64,000 nt of DNA from an uncultured Pelagibacteraceae bacterium (GTDB lineage: Bacteria > Pseudomonadota > Alphaproteobacteria > Pelagibacterales > Pelagibacteraceae). A program made the position numbers and the translations under genes. Under the pieces are notes generated by a model that did no database searches, had not been told where the DNA came from, and worked only from the letters and a program-made list of their open reading frames with translations. Where the stretch lies: the NCBI GenBank assembly GCA_902582345.1, contig CACHRU010000004.1:527-64526 (forward strand), read 5' to 3'. Position 1 is the stretch's first letter; the number at the start of each line of letters is the position of its first letter. Below, one piece after another: positions 769 to 46,130 of the stretch.

Positions 769-1709
769 TGGCTATCGATGTTAAGTACTTAAATAAATTC
801 ATTTCTGTCACTGAAAAAGCAGCCATTGGATCATCTTTTTTTATTGGGAAAAAAGATAAGATCGCAGCCGATCAAGGTGCAGTCGATAAAATGAGGAGTG
901 AACTTAATAAAATTGAGATGAAAGGGCTCGTTGTAATAGGAGAAGGCGAAATGGATGAAGCTCCAATGTTATACATTGGTGAAAAAGTTGGAACAAACCG
1001 CGGTCCTTTGTTTGATATAGCCCTAGACCCTTTAGAGGGGACCAACTTTGTTGCAAATAATTTACCTAATTCTTACTCAATGATCGCGGTAACGGAAAAA
1101 GATAATCTTTTTTCTGCACCCGATACTTATATGGAAAAAATTGCTATAGGTCCTAATCTACCTAAAAATTTACTAGACTTAGATAATCCAGTAGAAAAAA
1201 ATTTAAATTTATTAGCTAAAGCTAAAAATAAAAAATTAACTGATTTAACCGCATGTGTACTACAAAGACCAAGACACGATAAAATTGTACAATCTTTAAA
1301 TAAATTAGGTGTAAAAATTAAATTTATATCAGACGGTGATGTTGCAGGCGTAATTGCTGTAGGAGATAAAAATTCAAAAATAGACATATATTTGGGTATA
1401 GGAGGTGGTCCAGAGGGTGTTTTATCTGCTGCTGCACTTAGTTGTATTGGCGGACAAATTCAAACAAGATTAGTTTTAGATAATGAACAAAAAAAAAGAA
1501 TTGATCAATTTGGAATTAAAAATTTAAAAAAGAAATATAATATCGATGATATGGTTAAAGGAGACGTAATTTTTTGCGCTACTGCAATAACAGATGGATT
1601 ACTTGTACCTGGCATTCAAAAGAAGGATGATGAATTTGTTACATCAACTTACGCACTACACAAATCCTCTAATACGATAAAAAAAGTTACAAATATTCAT
1701 AAAGGATGA
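768..1709 (+). CDS. glpX: class II fructose-1,6-bisphosphatase
   Basis: VVIGEGEMDEAPML, DPLEGT, DGDV and GGGPEGVL motifs. Confidence 0.96.
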   Translation: MAIDVKYLNKFISVTEKAAIGSSFFIGKKDKIAADQGAVDKMRSELNKIEMKGLVVIGEGEMDEAPMLYIGEKVGTNRGPLFDIALDPLEGTNFVANNLPNSYSMIAVTEKDNLFSAPDTYMEKIAIGPNLPKNLLDLDNPVEKNLNLLAKAKNKKLTDLTACVLQRPRHDKIVQSLNKLGVKIKFISDGDVAGVIAVGDKNSKIDIYLGIGGGPEGVLSAAALSCIGGQIQTRLVLDNEQKKRIDQFGIKNLKKKYNIDDMVKGDVIFCATAITDGLLVPGIQKKDDEFVTSTYALHKSSNTIKKVTNIHKG

Positions 1710-3490
1710 ATAATATTTCAGTATCAGGAAAAAAGTGGTCATTAAAAAAATTTAATGAAGAAGACGTTATTTTTTTTAAAGAAAATTTTTTTTTGGACCA
1801 TATTATTTCAAAATTATTATCTGTGAGAGGTGTGCCAAGAAAAGAGGTTGAATTATTTTTGAATCCATCCTTAAAAAATATTTTACCAAATCCTGAAATC
1901 TTAAAGGATATGAATAAAGCAACCAATAAAGTATTTGATAATATATCAAAAAAGAAAAAACTTGGAATTTTTGGTGATTATGATGTAGATGGAGCTAGCT
2001 CCACAGCTTTGTTAGGAAATTTTTTCAAGAAAATAAACCATCCTTACGAAATTTATATACCAGATAGAAAAACTGAGGGTTATGGACCAAGTAAAGAAGG
2101 TTTGAAAAAATTGATTGATCTAAATGTAGGTTTAATTTTTACCGTTGATTGTGGAACAATGTCATTCGAACCAATTAATTATGCAAATAATAAGCAAGTA
2201 GACATTATAGTTTTAGATCACCATCAGAGTGAAATAAAACTTCCTGATGCTCATTCAATAGTAAATCCAAATAGATACGACGACGAGTCAAACTTAAAAT
2301 ATCTTTGTGCTTCAGGAGTCTGTTTTATGTTTTTAATTTCTCTAAATAAAAAATTACGTGAAGAAGGATGGTATATACATAATAAAATAAAAGAACCAAA
2401 TCTCTTAGAATTTTTAGATTTGGTTTCTCTTGGAACAATTTGTGATGTAGTTCCTTTAATTGGTCTTAATAGAGCACTAGTAAAACAGGGTTTGAAAATA
2501 CTTAACTTAAAAAAAAATCTTGGAATAAAAACACTTCTTGATATTTGTGGTATTGAAACAAACTTATCCACTTATCATTTAGGATATATGATTGGTCCAA
2601 GAATAAATGCAGGTGGTAGAGTTGGAAAATGCTCACATGGCGCAAATTTACTTATGAATTCTGAGCCAAAAAAAATATTTCAGATTGCATCCGAGTTAGA
2701 ACAATTTAATAAAGAAAGAAAAATTCTCGAGTCAAATCTCTTGAGTGCAGTTTTAAATTTAACTTTAGAAAAAAACAAAGATCCAGTTCTTATCCTAGAC
2801 GGTGAAAATTGGCATGAGGGTATTATTGGGATAATTGCATCAAAAATTAAAGATAAATTTAATAAACCAACAATTATTGTATCGACTAAAAATGGAGTCG
2901 GTAAAGCATCTGCTAGATCAATAGTTGGTTTTGATATAGGTTCAGTGATTATTTCTGCAGTTCAAAAAAAATTATTGATTAAAGGAGGAGGGCACAAAAT
3001 GGCTGGCGGTTTTTCCCTTAAAATGTCAAATTTAAATGATTTTAAAAAATTTATTTTTAATAAATTTAATCAATTTCAAAATAAAAATTCTTTGGATAAA
3101 ATATTTTATATTGATAGCGAAATATCTCCCTCAGCGTTGAATATTAATTTTTATGAAAATTTGGAAAAATTGGCACCATTTGGCTCTGGAAATCCTGAAC
3201 CAAGATTCGTTATTGAAGATCTTAAGGTGATAAAATCAAAAATTGTTGGAGAGAAACACGTCAAATCTATTTTACTAGCTAAAGATGGTTCATCTATATC
3301 ATCTATTTGTTTCAACTGCTTGGATAATGAAATTGGTCAATTTTTAATCAATAATAATAAGGATTTTTTTAGTATTGTAGGTAAATTGAGTTTAAATGAA
3401 TGGAAAGGGAAAAAAAATGTAGAGTTTATTATCGACGATATTTCTGTTATTAAGAAAATCAAAAATAAGGTCCCATCGTCTATCGGTTAG
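1706..3490 (+). CDS. recJ: single-stranded-DNA-specific exonuclease RecJ
   Basis: GDYDVDG, TVDCG, LDHH, PRINAGGR and GGGHKMAGG motifs; 3' end overlaps tRNA-Glu. Confidence 0.96.
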   Translation: MNNISVSGKKWSLKKFNEEDVIFFKENFFLDHIISKLLSVRGVPRKEVELFLNPSLKNILPNPEILKDMNKATNKVFDNISKKKKLGIFGDYDVDGASSTALLGNFFKKINHPYEIYIPDRKTEGYGPSKEGLKKLIDLNVGLIFTVDCGTMSFEPINYANNKQVDIIVLDHHQSEIKLPDAHSIVNPNRYDDESNLKYLCASGVCFMFLISLNKKLREEGWYIHNKIKEPNLLEFLDLVSLGTICDVVPLIGLNRALVKQGLKILNLKKNLGIKTLLDICGIETNLSTYHLGYMIGPRINAGGRVGKCSHGANLLMNSEPKKIFQIASELEQFNKERKILESNLLSAVLNLTLEKNKDPVLILDGENWHEGIIGIIASKIKDKFNKPTIIVSTKNGVGKASARSIVGFDIGSVIISAVQKKLLIKGGGHKMAGGFSLKMSNLNDFKKFIFNKFNQFQNKNSLDKIFYIDSEISPSALNINFYENLEKLAPFGSGNPEPRFVIEDLKVIKSKIVGEKHVKSILLAKDGSSISSICFNCLDNEIGQFLINNNKDFFSIVGKLSLNEWKGKKNVEFIIDDISVIKKIKNKVPSSIG

Positions 3491-3543
3491 GACACATGGT
3501 TTTCATCCATGAAAGAGGGGTTCGATTCCCCTTGGGACCGCCA
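3469..3543 (+). tRNA. tRNA-Glu(TTC)
   Basis: Acceptor GGTCCCA/TGGGACC, anticodon stem CATGG/CCATG with loop TTTTCAT, T arm AGGGG-TTCGATT-CCCCT, encoded CCA. Confidence 0.96.
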
Positions 3544-3598
3544 AAACTTTCCAAAAATTAGAATTACCAATAAATATTTTGATTAAATTTACGTTCAG

Positions 3599-3627
3599 TG
3601 TGATCAAATTGTGATCGTTTTGCGATC
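3599..3627 (+). repeat. three GYGATC hexamers at 11-bp period (left arm-like sites, cassette 1)
   Basis: GTGATC-aaatt-GTGATC-gtttt-GCGATC at 3600, 3611, 3622. Confidence 0.7.
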
Positions 3628-3648
3628 ATTTATTTGTTAGAATTTTAT

Positions 3649-4029
3649 ATGAAAAAAATTTTCTACACTTTAATTTTATTTATTTTTTCATCTTTAAATG
3701 CTTACGCAGGTATATTTAGTAAAGATATATTTAAATTTGAAAGATGTTTTACCGAAAGCTATTCAAATCATAATGATTGGATTAAAAATAGTGGTTTTGT
3801 TAAATGGGAGTGGGAAATTAATTTAAAAAAAAAGTCAGCAACAAGAATAGCTCAATTAGCATCTGATAACATGTTACGAGTTGATAGTTTTAATATAATT
3901 GCTGTTACAGATGAATTTATTAAAACCGATGATCCAACAGGAACTTCATATATTTTTTTTAGAAAAAATGGAGAAATACAAGTTAAAGGTCTAGGTCTAT
4001 CTAAAATGTTTTGTGAAAAGTATAGCTAA
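3649..4029 (+). CDS. small exported hypothetical protein
   Basis: ATG at 3649 gives MKKIFYTLILFIFSSLNAYA signal peptide; two Cys. Confidence 0.7.
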   Translation: MKKIFYTLILFIFSSLNAYAGIFSKDIFKFERCFTESYSNHNDWIKNSGFVKWEWEINLKKKSATRIAQLASDNMLRVDSFNIIAVTDEFIKTDDPTGTSYIFFRKNGEIQVKGLGLSKMFCEKYS

Positions 4030-4032
4030 TTT

Positions 4033-4689
4033 ATGAAACCAACATTTAGTAAAATAATAATATATTTAATTGTTGTGAATTTTTATCAAAATTTAATGGC
4101 AGCTGATTTGCCAGAAAAATTATTTGGTGTAAAATTAAAAGATCATATCGCTATTTATGCTGATAAAAGAAAATATAAAGAATCTTTTATGCCGAAAGGG
4201 ACACTGAGTTTTAAACTATCAACAAAAGATGAATTAAAAGAAATAAAACCAAATGATATTTTTGATTATTATTATTTGACTACAAAAAAAGATTTAAAAG
4301 TTTTATCCATTGAAGCTATTAAAGAGTATCCGGATGTAAAATCTGAGAATTTTAATAATGTTTGTCTTTCTGAATTACAAAAATTGAATAAAACTTTAGC
4401 TGATTTATATAATGTAAATCCAAATAAATTTAAACGTCGAGATTATAAAGTTAAAGATGATACTTTCACCTATTTAATTCAAACAAAATCATTAAATTAT
4501 AGAATAGGTGGAGAAAGTATAAGACTTTTCATTAGATGTGGTCATATAGGTGTTAAAGGACAAGTGGTGAGCCTACTGTCATTAGGCTTCATGACTCAAG
4601 AGCATTTCAAGAAAGATTGGTCACCTTTACTTGAAGATATGAAATTAATATCAAATGATTTCATTAAAAAAGATTTAAGAGGTTTTTAA
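4033..4689 (+). CDS. exported hypothetical protein
   Basis: 218-aa ORF with N-terminal hydrophobic signal-like segment. Confidence 0.7.
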   Translation: MKPTFSKIIIYLIVVNFYQNLMAADLPEKLFGVKLKDHIAIYADKRKYKESFMPKGTLSFKLSTKDELKEIKPNDIFDYYYLTTKKDLKVLSIEAIKEYPDVKSENFNNVCLSELQKLNKTLADLYNVNPNKFKRRDYKVKDDTFTYLIQTKSLNYRIGGESIRLFIRCGHIGVKGQVVSLLSLGFMTQEHFKKDWSPLLEDMKLISNDFIKKDLRGF

Positions 4690-4691
4690 AA

Positions 4692-4708
4692 GTGATCAAA
4701 TTGCGATC
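4692..4708 (+). repeat. two GYGATC hexamers at 11-bp period (right arm-like sites, cassette 1)
   Basis: GTGATC-aaatt-GCGATC; same motif and spacer as 3600-3616. Confidence 0.7.
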
Positions 4709-4784
4709 ACGCTCTAGTTAATTTAAAAGAATTATGCTAAAAGCATTGCTAATAAAGTGGTTCTGACCTAGGGTCACCATCAAC

Positions 4785-4816
4785 AAAGAGGGGTTCGATT
4801 CCCCTTGGGACCGCCA
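4785..4816 (+). repeat. exact copy of tRNA-Glu 3' 32 bp (att core copy 2)
   Basis: AAAGAGGGGTTCGATTCCCCTTGGGACCGCCA identical to 3512-3543. Confidence 0.95.
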
Positions 4817-4872
4817 AAAACTTCAAAAACCCTCAATAAACATAACTAGCAAATTATAAATTATTATTTTAC

Positions 4873-4890
4873 TGTGTCACCAGTGTGTCA
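4873..4890 (+). repeat. TGTGTCA x2 at 11-bp period (left arm-like sites, cassette 2)
   Basis: TGTGTCA-ccag-TGTGTCA; last base is the A of the next ATG. Confidence 0.65.
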
Positions 4891-5132
4891 TGAAAAAATT
4901 ACTTATTATTTTTATTCTTTTACTGTTTTCATGCAGTCAAGAAGATCAAAGTATGAAAAATTGTATAAAAGATTTGCAAACAAAATCTATTATTAAAAAT
5001 GGAAATGAAATGAAAATAAACAAAGAAATTGCTATTAAGTATTGTAATTTGTTTGATGAAAGTTTCCCAGAATTATTTAAAAAAAATAAAGGTGTGAATT
5101 TGGGTGTTGAGCAGGAATGGAACATTAGATGA
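4890..5132 (+). CDS. small putative lipoprotein
   Basis: MKKLLIIFILLLFSC lipobox-like signal; 80 aa. Confidence 0.65.
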   Translation: MKKLLIIFILLLFSCSQEDQSMKNCIKDLQTKSIIKNGNEMKINKEIAIKYCNLFDESFPELFKKNKGVNLGVEQEWNIR

Positions 5133-5524
5133 AATATCTATTTATAATTTCATATGCCATTTTTATTTTTTTTATAAGCGCAGTTTCAAAAGCAGAGACT
5201 AAGTGGGAAGAATTTACTAATACTGCTAATTCTATAATTTATATAACTGAAGAAAATCTTCAAATAACAAAAGGTTATGTTCAATTTGATTTTTTGTATG
5301 ATTTTAGAAAAAAGAACGCTGATATCTCGTCAATGAGGGTCACTTATATCATTGACTGTAAAAAACAAAAATCAGCTATTAAGAAAACAATCAGTTACGC
5401 AAAACCAATGGGCAAAAACAAATTAAGAGAAGAAATTAAAAAAGATTTAAAATGGGATACAGTTCTCAGTACAAAAACTAAAGTTACTGCTCTTGGATTA
5501 GCTATGAGAGAGGGTTGTATTTAA
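5129..5524 (+). CDS. exported protein, surface-adhesin E-like
   Basis: Signal peptide; W..(N/T)...Y pattern, S......DC, C-terminal W...C layout resembling adhesin-E family. Confidence 0.55.
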   Translation: MKYLFIISYAIFIFFISAVSKAETKWEEFTNTANSIIYITEENLQITKGYVQFDFLYDFRKKNADISSMRVTYIIDCKKQKSAIKKTISYAKPMGKNKLREEIKKDLKWDTVLSTKTKVTALGLAMREGCI

Positions 5525-5532
5525 GTTTATAT

Positions 5533-5934
5533 ATGAAAAAATTAATTGTTAATATTTTTATTCTTTTACTGTTGTCTAATTTGTGTATAGCTCAAGACCG
5601 AAACTTTGTACCTGTCGCAACAGTAAATGGTGAATTATATCTATTAGATTTCAATTCAATAAAACCAGGCGATAATAATGAAATAAAATATATTCAGTTA
5701 ATATCATTTAAAAAAAAACAAACTACAGAAAATGGAAAAAAATATCTATCAGTACAAATGTATATGAAAGGTAAATGTAATGAAATGATTAACAAACCCT
5801 ACATTTTACAATACTATGATGCTCAAATGAAAAAAGGAAATATAGTAAGATCAGCAAAATGGGGTGGTGATTGGAGTAAACCTAAAAAAGGAACTGCCTA
5901 CCATGTAGTTTTAGAAGAAGCTTGCAAAAATTAA
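5533..5934 (+). CDS. exported protein, surface-adhesin E-like
   Basis: ATG at 5533 (MKKLIVNIFILLLLSNLCIA); YLLDFNSIK, YLS...C, W....GT......AC layout. Confidence 0.55.
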   Translation: MKKLIVNIFILLLLSNLCIAQDRNFVPVATVNGELYLLDFNSIKPGDNNEIKYIQLISFKKKQTTENGKKYLSVQMYMKGKCNEMINKPYILQYYDAQMKKGNIVRSAKWGGDWSKPKKGTAYHVVLEEACKN

Positions 5935-5999
5935 ATTTGAAGTCTATTCCACCTCCAAACACCTATTGGAATAGTCTTTAGTGAATGTTAAGATAAGTT

Positions 6000-6347
6000 A
6001 TGAAAAATTTATTTTTATCAATAATATTTATTTTTTTTTGTATAACAAAAGTTAACGCAATTACGATAGTTTGCGAACACTCTGGAGAAAAGTTTGATTA
6101 TATGTTTATACTAGATGGAAATGAAACTTTCGCATATGTTCTTGAAGGTAATAAAGATTCTGGTATTGGCGAAATAAAACGTACTAAAACACCAGAAGGT
6201 TGGATATTTGAATTAACAAATATGTATCAAGGTCAAAAAGAAACAATGACTTGGGATGTAAATTTAAGAAAAAAAAGTGGGCTCTTTAAAATGAATTTGG
6301 TTGGTAAGAAAAAAACACGAAAAGTAAAGTGCAGTAAATTGCTCTGA
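6000..6347 (+). CDS. small exported hypothetical protein
   Basis: MKNLFLSIIFIFFCITKVNA signal; Cys near both ends of mature part. Confidence 0.7.
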   Translation: MKNLFLSIIFIFFCITKVNAITIVCEHSGEKFDYMFILDGNETFAYVLEGNKDSGIGEIKRTKTPEGWIFELTNMYQGQKETMTWDVNLRKKSGLFKMNLVGKKKTRKVKCSKLL

Positions 6348-6362
6348 CAAATACTAGACGCA

Positions 6363-6974
6363 ATGCCTTGGTCTAATAATAGTTTTTCTCTCTCCGAAAA
6401 AGTGAAAATTGATAAATTATTTTTAAATGTTCACAATTTTACTAATAAAGAAGTGAACTACATTTACTCAAGCTCAGAAGATGACAAAGAATATATGCAT
6501 TATGAATTATTAATTAATAAAAAAGCATATTTAAGATTAAAAGCAAACAAGATTACCTATAACAATTTAAAAAATTATCTTGATAAAATGGAAGACAATA
6601 AACCAAGTGACATTAAATTGGACCGAATTAAAAACAAAAACTCTTTTCGTTTGATGCCTAATTACGATGATATGAGTAAATCAAAAGATCTTTTTCCTTT
6701 TAGAGAAATTCAATTTACTTCAATGATTTTTTTAAAAAATGACAAATATAAAGGATTATGGACCAATCTAGCATTTGATAGATTTTGGGTGCTATATGAT
6801 GTTAAAAAAAAAGATGGTTTTTTTGGAGATTATAAAGATTGGGATTTTGAAAATTGGGACAAGGATTTAAAAGATGAATTTGATAATACAATTGGAAATA
6901 ATTTTATAAAGAAAACAATTAAATTTTTTAATAAGATCAAACCATCTCAATATGAAAATCCCAAGATTAAGTAG
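6363..6974 (+). CDS. hypothetical protein
   Basis: 203-aa ORF with no signal peptide or recognised motif. Confidence 0.6.
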   Translation: MPWSNNSFSLSEKVKIDKLFLNVHNFTNKEVNYIYSSSEDDKEYMHYELLINKKAYLRLKANKITYNNLKNYLDKMEDNKPSDIKLDRIKNKNSFRLMPNYDDMSKSKDLFPFREIQFTSMIFLKNDKYKGLWTNLAFDRFWVLYDVKKKDGFFGDYKDWDFENWDKDLKDEFDNTIGNNFIKKTIKFFNKIKPSQYENPKIK

Positions 6975-6991
6975 TGTGTCTGCAGTGAGTC
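6973..6991 (+). repeat. AGTGWGTC x2 at 11-bp period (right arm-like sites, cassette 2)
   Basis: AGTGTGTC-tgc-AGTGAGTC; overlaps stop codon of preceding ORF. Confidence 0.65.
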
Positions 6992-7045
6992 CGTTCTTGC
7001 CTATTTTTTTAAAATCATTTAATAATAAGGCTTATTTTAATTAAC

Positions 7046-7077
7046 AAAGAGGGGTTCGATTCCCCTTGGGACCGCCA
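7046..7077 (+). repeat. exact copy of tRNA-Glu 3' 32 bp (att core copy 3, attR-like)
   Basis: Identical to 3512-3543 and 4785-4816; preceded by AAC as in copy 2. Confidence 0.95.
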
Positions 7078-7084
7078 AATTTTT

Positions 7085-8041
7085 ATGTATAAAATAGCTG
7101 TCATCGAAAAAATCCATGAAGATGGTTTAAAAATTTTTTCTCAAAATCCCAATTATGAGTATGAACTAATTGAAGACACTTCAAAAGAAAATCTTATCAA
7201 AGAATTACCAAAATTTGATGGATGCACTTTAAGAGTCTCTGAATTAAATTCTGAAGTATTATCTCACTGTAAAAAATTGAAAGTTATATCAAGACATGGA
7301 GTGGGTTATGATAATGTTGATCTAGATTATATTAAAAAAAATAAAATTTCATTATTAATTACAGCAACAGCAAATGCAGTATCTGTAGCTGAACATGTTT
7401 TTTATATGATGCTATACATTTCTAAAGGGTTTAATAAATTTGATAGTGAAGTGCGATTGGGAAATTTCAAAAAAAATTCTCAAAAAATCAAAACTTTCGA
7501 GTTAAATAACAAAGAAATACTTATAGCCGGTTTCGGTAGAATTGGTCGAGCTCTATCAAAGAGATGCTCAAGCTTTCAGATGAAAATGAATATCTATGAT
7601 CCTTATGTTGATGAAAAAACTATAAATAATTGTGGTGGAAGAAAAGTAAGTGATTTCAATTTGGCTTTAAAAACCGCGGATTATGTCTCAATTCATATGC
7701 CTCTTACAGACAAAACTAATAATATAATAAACTACGATAATCTAAAAAAAATGAAAAAAAATTCAATTATAATAAACACTTCTAGAGGATCTATAATCAA
7801 TGAATTAGATCTAGACAAAGCTTTAAATGAAAATTTAATTTTTGGGGCAGGTTTAGATGTTTTTGAGAAAGAGCCAGTTGATAATAATAATCCATTACTA
7901 AAAAATGAAAAAGTCTTTTTAAGCCCACACTCAGCTACATTTACTGAAGAGTGCAAGTCTAAAATGAGTATTGAAACAACAAAAAATATAATTGATTTTT
8001 TTGAAAAAAAAATAGATAAATCAATGATAGTAAAGTTATGA
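7085..8041 (+). CDS. D-isomer-specific 2-hydroxyacid dehydrogenase (SerA-like, no ACT domain)
   Basis: RHGVGYDNVD, GFGRIG, INTSRG, GLDVFEKEP, SPHSA. Confidence 0.88.
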   Translation: MYKIAVIEKIHEDGLKIFSQNPNYEYELIEDTSKENLIKELPKFDGCTLRVSELNSEVLSHCKKLKVISRHGVGYDNVDLDYIKKNKISLLITATANAVSVAEHVFYMMLYISKGFNKFDSEVRLGNFKKNSQKIKTFELNNKEILIAGFGRIGRALSKRCSSFQMKMNIYDPYVDEKTINNCGGRKVSDFNLALKTADYVSIHMPLTDKTNNIINYDNLKKMKKNSIIINTSRGSIINELDLDKALNENLIFGAGLDVFEKEPVDNNNPLLKNEKVFLSPHSATFTEECKSKMSIETTKNIIDFFEKKIDKSMIVKL

Positions 8042-45176: not shown

Positions 45177-46130
45177 ATGAATGAACTTACAACTGATATA
45201 AAAGCTCTACATGAGGAAACATTAAGTAATCTTAAAACCTCTAAAGCAAACAATACTCTTAGAGCTTATAGATCAGATTTTAAGGATTTTGGTGGCTTTT
45301 GCGCTAAACATGGTTTTAAGTCCATGCCAACAGATCCAAAAGTTGTGTCTTTATACCTTACCTATTTATCTAAATCATCAAAAATTAGCACTTTGAGACG
45401 TAGATTGGTGTCTATAGGCGTTATTCATAAACTAAAAGGTCATTATCTAGATACAAAACATCCGATAATAATTGAAAATTTAATGGGAATTAAAAGAACA
45501 AAAGGTAGTAAACAAATAGGAAAAAAACCATTATTAATCAATCATTTAAAAGAAATAATTAATGTAATAAATCAACAAGATATTGATGAAATAGTAAAAT
45601 TAAGAAATAAGACATTAATATTAATTGGTTTTGGAGGAGGGTTTAGACGTTCAGAATTAATATCTATTGATTATGACGATGTTGAGTTTGTTGATGAGGG
45701 GGTTAAAATAATTCTTAAGAAATCTAAAACAGATCAATTTGGAGAAGGTATGATTAAAGGACTTCCCTACTTTTCAAAAGAAATTTATTGTCCGGTCGTA
45801 AATCTTATGAATTGGTTAAAAATATCAAAAATTAAAAATGGACCAATATTTAGAAGATTTGCAAAAGGATCCACTTTAACAAAAAACAGACTAACAGATC
45901 AATCAGTAGTCCTTATTATCAAAAATTGTTTAAAATTAGCCGGTATAGAAAATAATAATTTTTCTGGGCATAGTTTAAGATCTGGATTTGCTACTGTAGC
46001 TGCAGAAGCAGGTGCAGATGAGAGAAGTATTATGGCTATGACAGGGCATAAAACTACACAAATGGTTAGACGCTATATAAAAGAAGCAAATATATTTAAA
46101 AATAATGCTTTAAATAAAATAAAAATCTAA
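45177..46130 (+). CDS. Cre-like tyrosine recombinase/integrase
   Basis: NTLRAYRSD N-domain; catalytic R (FRRSEL), K (KSKTDQ), HxxR (GHSLRSG), H (TGH), Y (RRYI) all intact. Confidence 0.92.
   Translation: MNELTTDIKALHEETLSNLKTSKANNTLRAYRSDFKDFGGFCAKHGFKSMPTDPKVVSLYLTYLSKSSKISTLRRRLVSIGVIHKLKGHYLDTKHPIIIENLMGIKRTKGSKQIGKKPLLINHLKEIINVINQQDIDEIVKLRNKTLILIGFGGGFRRSELISIDYDDVEFVDEGVKIILKKSKTDQFGEGMIKGLPYFSKEIYCPVVNLMNWLKISKIKNGPIFRRFAKGSTLTKNRLTDQSVVLIIKNCLKLAGIENNNFSGHSLRSGFATVAAEAGADERSIMAMTGHKTTQMVRRYIKEANIFKNNALNKIKI

What the first reader, a model, noticed from the sequence alone, without database searches (positions are those of the whole stretch)
3469..7077. Tandem array of integrase-less gene cassettes at tRNA-Glu, each closed by a copy of the tRNA 3' end
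Seen: the 32-bp block AAAGAGGGGTTCGATTCCCCTTGGGACCGCCA occurs three times exactly (3512, 4785, 7046), cutting out units of 1273 and 2261 bp. The flanks follow the attL/attP/attR logic of sequential integration. Copies 2 and 3 are both preceded by AAC (related P arms). Copies 1 and 2 are both followed by similar AAA(A)CTT.CAAAAA...CAATAAA sequence (related P' arms). Copy 3 runs 7 bp into the next metabolic gene (B' arm). Neither unit encodes an integrase, replication or capsid gene. Established: tyrosine integrases often target tRNA 3' ends, with crossover in the 7-nt T-loop flanked by symmetric sequence, and the core here is centred on that T arm. Inference: these are minimal non-autonomous cassettes mobilised in trans by a phage or satellite integrase. 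They would accumulate in a polarised, integron-like array with the newest next to the tRNA, giving a streamlined genome swappable surface/secreted protein modules.
Basis: partly seen in the sequence, partly recalled or inferred. Interest (0 to 1): 0.88.

Follow-up and report, generated by a model that had tools for sequence, protein, structure and literature searches.

The report
Integrase-less gene cassettes at SAR11 tRNA-Glu
Two small blocks of genes, mostly for exported proteins, sit one behind the other at the end of a tRNA-Glu gene in an ocean SAR11 (Pelagibacteraceae) genome; each keeps both docking sites used by small integrase-carrying, phage-satellite-like elements but has no integrase, so they look like cargo cassettes that such elements can insert and spread.

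Summary
The last 32 nt of tRNA-Glu(UUC) occur three times exactly (3512, 4785, 7046) and bound units of 1273 and 2261 bp between recJ and a 2-hydroxyacid dehydrogenase. The units have seven ORFs and no integrase, replication or packaging gene.

Both are members of cassette families. Relatives carry 0.6-4.2 kb units at this site with conserved ends and different cargo. Each family has its own 7-mer in 11-nt-spaced direct repeats at both ends: GTGATCA-type in unit 1, TGTGTC-type in unit 2.

The same architecture is the attP of small integrase-bearing elements. One relative (SAG AG-915-B23) has a 4.1-kb integrase+primase element at this site, and its joined P-core-P' form occurs in a metagenome. 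A 5.4-kb integrase/helicase/small-terminase element carries the exact 32-nt core flanked by TGTGTCA repeats.

Shared cargo is 90-96% identical between species whose recJ flanks are 70-79% identical. Empty sites exist.

Best reading: non-autonomous, CIME-like cassettes served in trans by satellite integrases. The integron-like polarity is untested. This scan already reported the same phenomenon in other SAR11 genomes. It is a new variant of a known kind.

The parts
1706..3490 (+). recJ (left chromosomal flank, B side)
   Evidence: Pfam DHH, DHHA1 and RecJ_OB. The same gene lies upstream of tRNA-Glu in relatives.
3469..3543 (+). tRNA-Glu(UUC), intact; its 3' end is the attachment site
   Evidence: ARAGORN; Rfam RF00005, 59.9 bits.
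3512..3543 (+). core copy 1 (attL core: T arm, 3' acceptor strand and CCA)
   Evidence: Exact 32-mer.
3544..3633 (+). left (P') arm of cassette 1, family B. It holds three GTGATC-type 7-mers at 3599, 3610 and 3621, spaced 11 nt apart.
   Evidence: Conserved in the relatives L051, L036, L035_c2 and L047. Motif positions.
3649..4029 (+). cassette 1 ORF1, 126 aa, signal-peptide-like N-terminus, no family
4033..4689 (+). cassette 1 ORF2, 218 aa, signal-peptide-like N-terminus, near-orphan
   Evidence: Three hits among 5.8 billion proteins. An 88% identical copy lies beside small-terminase genes in L187.
4690..4784 (+). right (P) arm of cassette 1, family B, with GTGATC-type 7-mers at 4691 and 4702
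   Evidence: The same arm is present in L051 (G230).
4785..4816 (+). core copy 2 (junction of cassette 1's P arm with cassette 2's P' arm)
   Evidence: Exact 32-mer.
4817..4889 (+). left (P') arm of cassette 2, family A: a 73-nt conserved end with TGTGTC-type 7-mers at 4872 and 4883. The first ORF starts at the next base.
   Evidence: Alignment of 17 family A left ends. Motif positions.
4890..5132 (+). cassette 2 ORF1, 80 aa, lipoprotein-like (lipobox)
5129..5524 (+). cassette 2 ORF2, 131 aa, Adhesin_E family
   Evidence: PF16747, E = 1.4e-11.
5533..5934 (+). cassette 2 ORF3, 133 aa, Adhesin_E family
   Evidence: PF16747, E = 2.4e-14.
6000..6347 (+). cassette 2 ORF4, 115 aa, signal-peptide-like N-terminus, no family
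6363..6974 (+). cassette 2 ORF5, 203 aa, no signal peptide, near-orphan
   Evidence: Four hits. Found in other family A cassettes with different companion genes: L188, L189, L190.
6974..7045 (+). right (P) arm of cassette 2, family A, with TGTGTC-type 7-mers at 6974 and 6985
   Evidence: Alignment of 17 family A right ends; about 77 nt are conserved. Motif positions.
7046..7077 (+). core copy 3 (attR core)
   Evidence: Exact 32-mer.
7085..8041 (+). D-2-hydroxyacid dehydrogenase (right chromosomal flank, B' side)
   Evidence: Pfam 2-Hacid_dh and 2-Hacid_dh_C. It starts 7-9 nt after the tRNA in the empty-site relatives G049, G022 and G004.

Best explanation
The interval 3544-7045 holds two non-autonomous integrative elements, cargo-only cassettes, stacked at the attB in the 3' end of tRNA-Glu of a Pelagibacteraceae (SAR11) genome. 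Each is a complete recombination substrate of lambda-type tyrosine integrases. It has a core (the tRNA T arm plus acceptor end) at both borders. It also has arm-type sites, 7-mers in 11-nt-spaced direct repeats, about 55-100 bp inside each border. The matching integrases are not in this genome. They are carried by small (4-5.5 kb) phage-satellite-like elements (integrase plus primase or helicase, sometimes a small terminase) that use the same core as attP. What is shown: the att architecture; the cassette families with swapped cargo; presence/absence polymorphism at the site; horizontal spread between species; integrase-bearing elements with the same core and a related arm motif, in both integrated and joined (attP) forms; and the same cargo sitting beside small-terminase genes in one metagenome contig. 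What is inferred: a satellite integrase supplied in trans excises and integrates the cassettes; cassettes pass between cells by riding with satellites, through co-excision of tandem units or capture as satellite cargo; and units pile up because every integration regenerates a core. Cassette 2 (TGTGTC motif) has identified candidate integrases, those of the G252 and P0004 elements. Cassette 1 (GTGATCA motif) has none yet.
For: The repeats are exact and non-random. In a sample of the same genus, 18 of 105 genomes with the core have two to five copies, in units of 593-4173 bp. Three checked relatives have the empty site recJ-tRNA-Glu-dehydrogenase. Family A has 17 units with 73-nt left and ~77-nt right ends conserved around different cargo, and the first ORF starts at +74 in most of them. 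Family B behaves likewise. The same 7-mer occurs in 11-nt-spaced pairs at both ends in 13 of 26 units, including both window units, against 0.06 of 25 for interior control windows. Shared cargo is 90-95.6% identical between genomes whose recJ flanks are 70-79% identical, and the cargo is mosaic. G252 (SAG AG-915-B23) holds a 4146-bp element at the same site with a tyrosine integrase (PF00589, 9.5e-24) and a primase-like gene. Its ends carry TGTGTCC repeats. Metagenome contig L102 carries a 99% identical integrase next to P arm-core-P' arm joined through one core. The P0004 integrase (62% identical to G252's) sits in 5.4-kb units with an AAA_25 helicase and a Terminase_2 gene. About 125 bp upstream of that integrase lie the exact 32-nt core without a whole tRNA, a pair of GTGTCA repeats in the P arm and four TGTGTCA(C) repeats in the P' arm. 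Sister satellites with other tRNA cores have their own repeat pairs in the same places. The AlphaFold model of the G252 integrase (pLDDT 87.5) has an N-terminal three-strand sheet plus helix ahead of the core-binding and catalytic domains. It aligns over its full length with whole lambda Int (TM 0.67-0.69). Window 3602-4709 (cassette 1 cargo) is 88% identical over 1109 bp to a contig where it lies beside Terminase_2 genes.
Against: Movement of these two units was not observed. This 85%-complete assembly has no integrase of the satellite family. No integrase-bearing element with exactly the family A or family B arms was found. That covers 178 genomes of the genus, 15 further metagenome instances of the family A right end, IMG/VR and INPHARED. 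The link to a particular integrase therefore rests on the shared core and a shared short motif. Some relatives have mutated or lost cores (L039, L043, L050, L047, L104, L188), so at least part of the pool is decaying in place. The short conserved ends could also serve as homology for ordinary recombination.
Confidence: 0.72

Rival explanations
1. Inert scars. The units are decayed leftovers of satellites that once integrated here and lost their integrase and replication genes. They no longer move by site-specific recombination. Their spread among relatives is vertical or by homologous recombination of the whole recJ-dehydrogenase interval.
For: There is no integrase in the units or in the genome. 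Cores are degenerate or lost in several relatives. The CIME model itself starts from decay of a full element (PMC5704250). The tycheposon preprint describes degenerated elements and stray partial tRNAs in islands (10.1101/2020.12.28.424599).
Against: All three cores in the window are exact over 32 nt, although only copy 1 is under tRNA selection. Both arms, including the repeat pairs, are conserved around at least 17 different cargoes, and no integrase fragment occurs in any of them. Cargo is 90-96% identical across species whose flanks are 70-79% identical, which whole-interval homologous exchange does not explain. The same genes occur in units with different companion genes and at different array positions.
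Confidence: 0.2
2. Host-recombinase elements. The cassettes are moved by the single chromosomal Xer-like tyrosine recombinase (window 45177-46130), in the manner of the integrase-less IMEX elements that exploit XerCD at dif.
For: Nearly every genome of the genus has exactly one tyrosine recombinase, so it would always be available. IMEX elements are integrase-less and stack in tandem (my own knowledge; not checked here).
Against: The site is a tRNA 3' end with arm repeats. That is the layout of the satellites' own attP next to their own integrases. The host protein is only distantly Xer-like (79 bits against a cut-off of 329.6) and was not linked to this site by any result. Different cassette families carry different arm motifs, which one host enzyme does not explain.
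Confidence: 0.04
3. Integron-like system. The cassettes are captured as folded single-stranded sites by a dedicated integron-type integrase and are expressed from a common promoter, with the newest unit nearest the tRNA.
For: The units form a tandem, co-oriented array of small gene units with a repeated boundary.
Against: No integron integrase is present; the best NCBIfam integron score is 34 against a cut-off of 265. The boundaries do not fold better than shuffled sequence (z = -0.06 to -1.95). Units hold two to five genes and each carries its own conserved upstream end. The boundary is an ordinary lambda-type core with arms.
Confidence: 0.02

Closest known systems
CIMEs (cis-mobilizable elements) of streptococcal ICE/IME systems (definition in PMC5704250)
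   Same: The element keeps attL and attR but has no integration or transfer genes. It sits in tandem at the 3' end of a tRNA-type target. It is expected to move when a related integrase-bearing element supplies the enzyme or integrates beside it (accretion).
   Different: Here the autonomous partners are small phage-satellite-like elements of a streamlined marine bacterium, not conjugative elements. The cassettes form families with standardised ends and freely swapped cargo; 32 family A right ends were found and none is accompanied by an integrase of the satellite family. That looks like a maintained cassette format more than one-off decay products. Mobilisation is untested.
Marine phage satellites / VEIMEs of Pelagibacter (Eppley et al. 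2022, PMC9618062) and PICI-like tycheposons (10.1101/2020.12.28.424599)
   Same: The hosts and habitat are the same, the elements rely on tyrosine integrases, and tycheposons likewise integrate at tRNA genes. The integrase-bearing relatives found here (integrase plus helicase or primase plus small terminase, 4-5.5 kb, tandem copies in contigs) fit that description. They share the core and the arm motif with the window's cassettes.
   Different: The window's units lack every hallmark gene of a satellite: integrase, replication and packaging. The papers read do not describe att-complete, integrase-less cassettes. The tycheposon work explains integrase-free island material by imprecise excision, which would not leave both arms intact.
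Additive flexible genomic islands at tRNA genes (Alteromonas, PMC4898812; 'Ca. Methylopumilus' tRNA-Lys island with recurring 20-nt tRNA-end repeats, PMC10872708)
   Same: A tRNA-anchored hotspot where the number and content of cassettes differ between strains, partial tRNA repeats mark the insertions, and nearly identical cassettes occur in different species.
   Different: Those reports give no arm-site architecture and identify no cognate integrase. Here both arms, their repeat motifs and matching integrase-bearing elements are identified.
Phage lambda attP with arm-type sites bound by the Int N-terminal domain (structures 1z1g and 1z1b)
   Same: Core sites lie around a short overlap, with direct-repeat arm sites tens of bp away on both sides. 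The integrase model has an N-terminal sheet-plus-helix domain and aligns over its full length with lambda Int.
   Different: Sequence identity is only ~18%. The arm sites here are simple 11-nt-spaced pairs. Binding, accessory factors and directionality control are unknown.

Membership tests
CIME-like non-autonomous integrative element | Flanked by attL and attR (direct repeats of the core at both borders) | tested here: met
   Exact 32-nt cores at 3512, 4785 and 7046.
CIME-like non-autonomous integrative element | No integrase and no transfer, replication or packaging genes inside | tested here: met
   Pfam, NCBIfam and PHROGs on all seven ORFs. A six-frame PF00589 search finds nothing in the interval.
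CIME-like non-autonomous integrative element | att sites related to those of an autonomous element that targets the same site | tested here: met
   The G252 element at the same tRNA-Glu, its joined attP form in L102, and the P0004 satellite attP with the exact core and TGTGTCA repeats. The match is by core and short motif for cassette 2. No partner with the GTGATCA motif was found for cassette 1.
CIME-like non-autonomous integrative element | Excision or transfer when a functional partner is present | not testable with these tools
This needs an assay or long reads.
Lambda-type (heterobivalent tyrosine integrase) attachment sites | Core with inverted repeats around a short overlap | tested here: met
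   The T arm reads GGGG, a 7-nt loop, then CCCC inside the core. The crossover point itself was not mapped.
Lambda-type (heterobivalent tyrosine integrase) attachment sites | Arm-type repeat sites on both arms | tested here: met
   The same 7-mer occurs in 11-nt-spaced pairs at both ends in 13 of 26 units against 0.06 of 25 controls, and both window units pass. The layout is the same in the satellites' attP.
Lambda-type (heterobivalent tyrosine integrase) attachment sites | Cognate integrase has an arm-binding N-terminal domain | tested here: inconclusive
   The model of the G252 integrase has strands at 2-7, 10-15 and 23-27 plus a helix at 30-45, and aligns over its full length with lambda Int. 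This is a predicted fold only, and binding to the repeats is untested.
Integron cassette array | Adjacent integron integrase (IntI) with attI and a common promoter | tested here: not met
   The genome has one PF00589 hit, 42 kb away and Xer-like. Its integron model score is 34 against a cut-off of 265.
Integron cassette array | attC sites that fold as imperfect hairpins | tested here: not met
   Single-strand folds of the four boundaries give z = -0.06 to -1.95, and the only stable stem is the tRNA T arm.
Phage satellite (VEIME / PICI-like / tycheposon) | Own integrase plus replication and/or packaging genes | tested here: not met
   None are present in the window's units. They are present in the related elements L045 and L082-L096.
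Additive flexible genomic island at a tRNA | The same chromosomal slot holds different numbers and kinds of cassettes in relatives, marked by partial tRNA repeats | tested here: met
   Relatives hold zero to four units at this slot, with 26 units compared.

The most novel reading that the evidence does not exclude
SAR11 may run a 'distributed cassette system'. In it, a pool of standardised, att-complete, integrase-less cassettes would sit at several tRNA and tmRNA slots (Glu here; the GTGATCA repeat also lies next to tRNA-Met and tmRNA-type cores in relatives). The cassettes would be served by a modular family of satellite integrases in which arm specificity and core specificity are combined in different ways. 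Satellites, and the phage capsids they hijack, would act as the shuttle. This would be a main route of gene gain in the most abundant and supposedly mobile-element-poor bacterium of the ocean. It would work like an integron whose integrase lives on a parasite of phages.
Probability: 0.3. Interest if true: 0.8.

Novelty: new variant of a known kind. Interest (0 to 1): 0.6.

Why it matters
SAR11 genomes are the textbook case of streamlining and are usually described as almost free of mobile elements, yet their pangenome is open. This locus shows a concrete, testable mechanism for small-scale gene gain. Cargo-only cassettes have standard ends that fit the integrases of tiny phage-satellite-like elements, so the cell can receive genes at a tRNA slot without keeping any recombination gene itself. 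It also supplies testable DNA-protein pairs (7-mer repeats and integrase N-domains). It links three bodies of work that have been described separately: additive tRNA islands, marine satellites (VEIMEs and tycheposons) and CIMEs. The cargo consists of small exported proteins and lipoproteins, two of them Adhesin_E-like. Relatives carry serine proteases and a Z1/helicase gene. This points to cell-surface and possibly phage-interaction traits. If the cassettes prove immobile, the locus is still a clean record of repeated satellite traffic at one tRNA.

Tried and rejected
1. Phage attP. The core 27-mer and its SAR11 variant were searched in IMG/VR. All 20 hits are whole phage-encoded tRNA genes (mostly in tRNA arrays), not attP.

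2. A reconstituted family A junction was run by blastn against INPHARED phages, with no match.

3. A 17-nt family A arm word in IMG/VR gave three chance hits in unrelated 48% GC contigs.

4. The G252 integrase searched in IMG/VR with the search for related loci gave no relatives. The family was found only through the protein database and metagenome contigs.

5. Published pelagiphage integration sites are tRNA-Cys, tRNA-Leu and tRNA-Arg, not tRNA-Glu (10.1101/410191).

6. I looked for an autonomous master copy with family A arms. None was found in the 178 genomes of the genus or in 15 further metagenome loci.

7. I looked for an integrase partner with the family B motif. None was found. The motif search instead turned up cassettes at other tRNA and tmRNA cores.

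8. Promoter in the conserved left end. The family A consensus has a TTGATA / 17-18 nt / TAAAAT-like pair, but the scan of the window is no richer than shuffles (27 found, 23.6 expected). The window's own copy has a weaker -35. I kept this only as a weak idea.

9. My first motif statistic (a 7-mer shared by both ends, any spacing) did not discriminate: 22 of 26 units against about 14 of 25 controls. I replaced it with the 11-nt-spacing test.

10. Rfam finds nothing but the tRNA.

12. No complex-prediction job was run.

Full report
**1. Observation**

The 32-nt block at window:3512-3543 is the 3' end of an intact tRNA-Glu(UUC) at 3469-3543. It recurs exactly at 4785 and 7046 on the same strand, with none expected by chance. 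These are the only copies in the 978-kb, 27-contig, 85%-complete assembly. No other tRNA of the assembly has a repeated end.

The array lies between recJ (1706-3490) and a D-2-hydroxyacid dehydrogenase (7085-8041). Unit 1 (3544-4784) has two ORFs and unit 2 (4817-7045) has five, all on the + strand. Two of the ORFs are Adhesin_E-family proteins. The rest match nothing in Pfam, NCBIfam or PHROGs. A crude N-terminus test finds six of the seven signal-peptide-like and one with a lipobox.

There is no integrase, replication or capsid gene and no integrase fragment in the units. The genome's only PF00589 match is a Xer-like gene 42 kb away.

One detail of the finding is wrong. Copy 3 ends at 7077 and the dehydrogenase starts at 7085, so they do not overlap.

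**2. The site in relatives**

A 27-nt core search in 401 genomes of the family showed that most have one copy. In the window's own genus, 18 of the 105 genomes with a match have two to five copies, always in direct orientation on one contig. I fetched 20 such loci. The units are 593-4173 bp long.

Three high-quality relatives (G049, G022, G004) have the empty arrangement. In them recJ is followed by tRNA-Glu, and the dehydrogenase ATG comes 7-9 nt later. The slot is therefore polymorphic, holding from zero to four units.

A database scan names one of these genomes (G252) as an uncultured Pelagibacteraceae single-cell genome, AG-915-B23. This places the genus in SAR11.

**3. Cassette families with standard ends**

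The units fall into families defined by their ends, not by their cargo.

- Family A includes window unit 2 and has 17 examples. A 73-nt left end is conserved, and the first ORF starts at the next base in most units. A right end of about 77 nt is also conserved. Between the ends lie one to five unrelated genes.
- Family B includes window unit 1 and has five or six examples. It has different conserved ends.
- Other genera have further families (L052, L053).

Every family carries its own 7-mer as direct repeats spaced 11 nt apart, about 55-100 bp inside both borders and in the same orientation:

- GTGATC-type in family B (window 3599, 3610, 3621 and 4691, 4702);
- TGTGTC-type in family A (window 4872, 4883 and 6974, 6985);
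- TGGGCAC in the other genus.

A strict test asked for the same 7-mer, with at most one mismatch, in 11-nt-spaced pairs at both ends. It is met by 13 of 26 units, including both window units. Random interior windows of the same units meet it 0.06 times in 25.

**4. Horizontal spread**

Where two genomes share cargo, it is 90-95.6% identical. One example is L039 against L043, over 1133 bp. The adjacent recJ flanks of the same genomes are only 70-79% identical.

Cargo is also mosaic. One gene is shared by units that otherwise differ, and similar cargo sits at different positions in different arrays.

The window's own cargo proteins are near-orphans, with three or four hits among 5.8 billion proteins. 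Even so, ORF 6363-6974 turns up in three other family A units with different companion genes (L188, L189, L190).

**5. Integrase-bearing partners**

G252 carries a 4146-bp element at the same tRNA-Glu. It has a 328-aa tyrosine integrase (PF00589, 9.5e-24) whose start lies about 110 bp from the right border. It also has a primase-like gene and small ORFs. Its two ends carry TGTGTCC-type repeat pairs.

A metagenome contig (L102) encodes a 99% identical integrase. Upstream of it, that element's right arm, a single core and its left arm are joined. This is the attP form, either circular or tandem.

The integrase family is abundant in marine metagenomes, with 255 proteins at E <= 1e-10. One member, P0004, is 62% identical and is seen on 57 contigs. 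It sits in 5.4-kb units of integrase, an AAA_25 helicase, a Terminase_2 small terminase and small ORFs, and these units repeat in tandem within contigs.

About 125 bp upstream of that integrase lies the exact 32-nt window core with no whole tRNA around it. A pair of GTGTCA repeats sits in the P arm about 100 bp upstream of the core. Four TGTGTCA(C) repeats at 11-nt spacing sit in the P' arm 65-110 bp downstream.

Sister elements (P0012, P0016 and a second element in the same contigs) use other tRNA or tmRNA ends as core. Each has its own repeat pair in the same places. In Pelagibacteraceae genomes, other members of the family lie next to tmRNA and tRNA-Leu.

The repeat pairs are therefore a general feature of this family's attP. 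They are best read as arm-type sites.

The AlphaFold model of the G252 integrase (pLDDT 87.5) has an N-terminal three-stranded sheet plus a helix (residues 2-45) ahead of the core-binding and catalytic domains. It aligns over its full length with whole lambda Int (TM 0.67-0.69). Its best matches are the Tn1549 and lambda integrases. This fits an arm-binding domain but does not prove one.

**6. Cargo on a satellite**

Window 3602-4709 covers the cargo of unit 1 from the inner arm repeats on one side to those on the other. It is 88% identical over 1109 bp to a metagenome contig (L187). There it has no tRNA core beside it. It lies next to Terminase_2 and small genes on the other strand, with a triple GAACGCA repeat upstream. 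The same cargo therefore also sits beside satellite-type genes.

**7. What was not found**

- The window's genome has no satellite-family integrase. Nearly all 178 genomes of the genus have just one tyrosine recombinase, the Xer-like one. Only four have a relative of the G252 integrase.
- No integrase-bearing element with exactly family A arms exists in those genomes. None exists in 15 more metagenome loci that carry the family A right end.
- No partner with the GTGATCA motif was found. That motif instead appears beside tRNA-Met and tmRNA-type cores in relatives.
- IMG/VR and INPHARED gave no attP.
- Cultured pelagiphages are reported to use tRNA-Cys, tRNA-Leu and tRNA-Arg (10.1101/410191).
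- The boundaries do not fold like integron attC sites, and Rfam sees only the tRNA.

**8. Mechanism**

Shown:
- complete attL/attR architecture on both window units;
- cassette families with standard ends;
- presence/absence polymorphism and cross-species spread;
- integrase-bearing elements with the same core, in integrated and joined forms;
- a shared arm motif between family A and those elements;
- the same cargo beside satellite-type genes.

Inferred: a satellite integrase supplied in trans binds the arm repeats and the core, then excises or inserts the units. Units travel between cells with satellites, by co-excision of neighbouring units or by capture as cargo. Each insertion regenerates a core, so units accumulate. 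Distal cores, free of tRNA selection, decay, which produces the mutated or lost cores and fused units seen in L039, L043, L050, L047, L104 and L188.

The order of arrival in the array is unknown. I put about 0.72 on this reading, about 0.2 on inert scars, and little on a host-Xer or an integron-type mechanism.

**9. Comparison with what is known**

- By definition these units are closest to CIMEs, elements that kept attL and attR but lost their integration and transfer genes (PMC5704250). The partners here are phage-satellite-like elements, not conjugative ones.
- The partners match the Pelagibacter-associated VEIMEs (PMC9618062) and the PICI-like tycheposons.
- The locus is an additive tRNA island in the sense used for Alteromonas and Methylopumilus.
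- The SAR11 genome papers I searched or read (PMC7318151; 'Pelagibacter, resolved') do not describe att-complete, integrase-less cassettes.
- This scan has already reported the same phenomenon on other SAR11 DNA, at tRNA-Glu, tRNA-Thr and tRNA-Met. Those are AI notes, seen after my reading was formed, and I do not count them as independent evidence.

**10. Verdict**

The feature is real and well anchored by comparison, and its mechanism is plausible but unproven. It is a new variant of a known kind, of moderate to high interest for marine microbial genomics.

Noticed in passing
window 45177-46130: This is the only tyrosine recombinase in the assembly. It is only distantly Xer-like (XerD model 79 bits against a cut-off of 329.6). 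Nearly every one of the 178 genomes of the genus has exactly one such gene. A single divergent Xer in these genomes may deserve its own look, including where the dif site is.
   Followed up: partly
L082-L087 (metagenome contigs): Contigs hold tandem runs of two different 5.4-kb satellite-like units. One has a 334-aa integrase and the tRNA-Glu core. The other has a 345-aa integrase, a different core also seen near tmRNA in G258, and TGTACCT repeat pairs. These could be packaged concatemers, tandem integrations or assembly chimeras.
   Followed up: partly
L191, L194 (tRNA-Met); L192, L193 (tmRNA-type core) in G004, G407, G258: The GTGATCA 11-nt repeat pair of family B also lies about 85-110 bp from tRNA-Met and tmRNA-type cores in relatives. 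This suggests that one arm specificity is combined with several core specificities.
   Followed up: partly
window 4853-4880, minus strand: A near-consensus promoter-like pair (GTGACA, 16 nt, TATAAT; 11 of 12 matches) overlaps the family A arm repeat and points toward the core. In a circular form it would read across attP toward the place where satellites keep their integrase. In this AT-rich DNA it may be chance.
   Followed up: no
L047 (G184) and L188 (MDTA01004133.1): These are fused units. A family B unit runs into a family A unit with no intact core between them. In L188, a family A unit contains an internal degenerate right arm without a core. Both are examples of decay inside arrays.
   Followed up: partly
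L035, L050, L053 (relatives' cassettes); L047: Cargo in relatives includes secreted trypsin-like serine proteases (three units, two genera), a MORN-repeat protein and a Z1-domain/ResIII helicase gene that looks defence-related. Eppley et al. mention periplasmic serine proteases on Pelagibacter-associated satellites.
   Followed up: no
L058, L061 (IMG/VR contigs): A whole tRNA-Glu with the window's exact 27-nt core sits in viral contigs. It is preceded by GGTGAATTT direct repeats. It is probably a phage-encoded tRNA, and its meaning for this site is unknown.
   Followed up: no
G132:C6:3582 and 5888 (another genus): Two copies of the core lie in opposite orientation 2.3 kb apart. ARAGORN was not run on this locus, so it may be two convergent tRNA-Glu genes or an inverted unit.
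   Followed up: no
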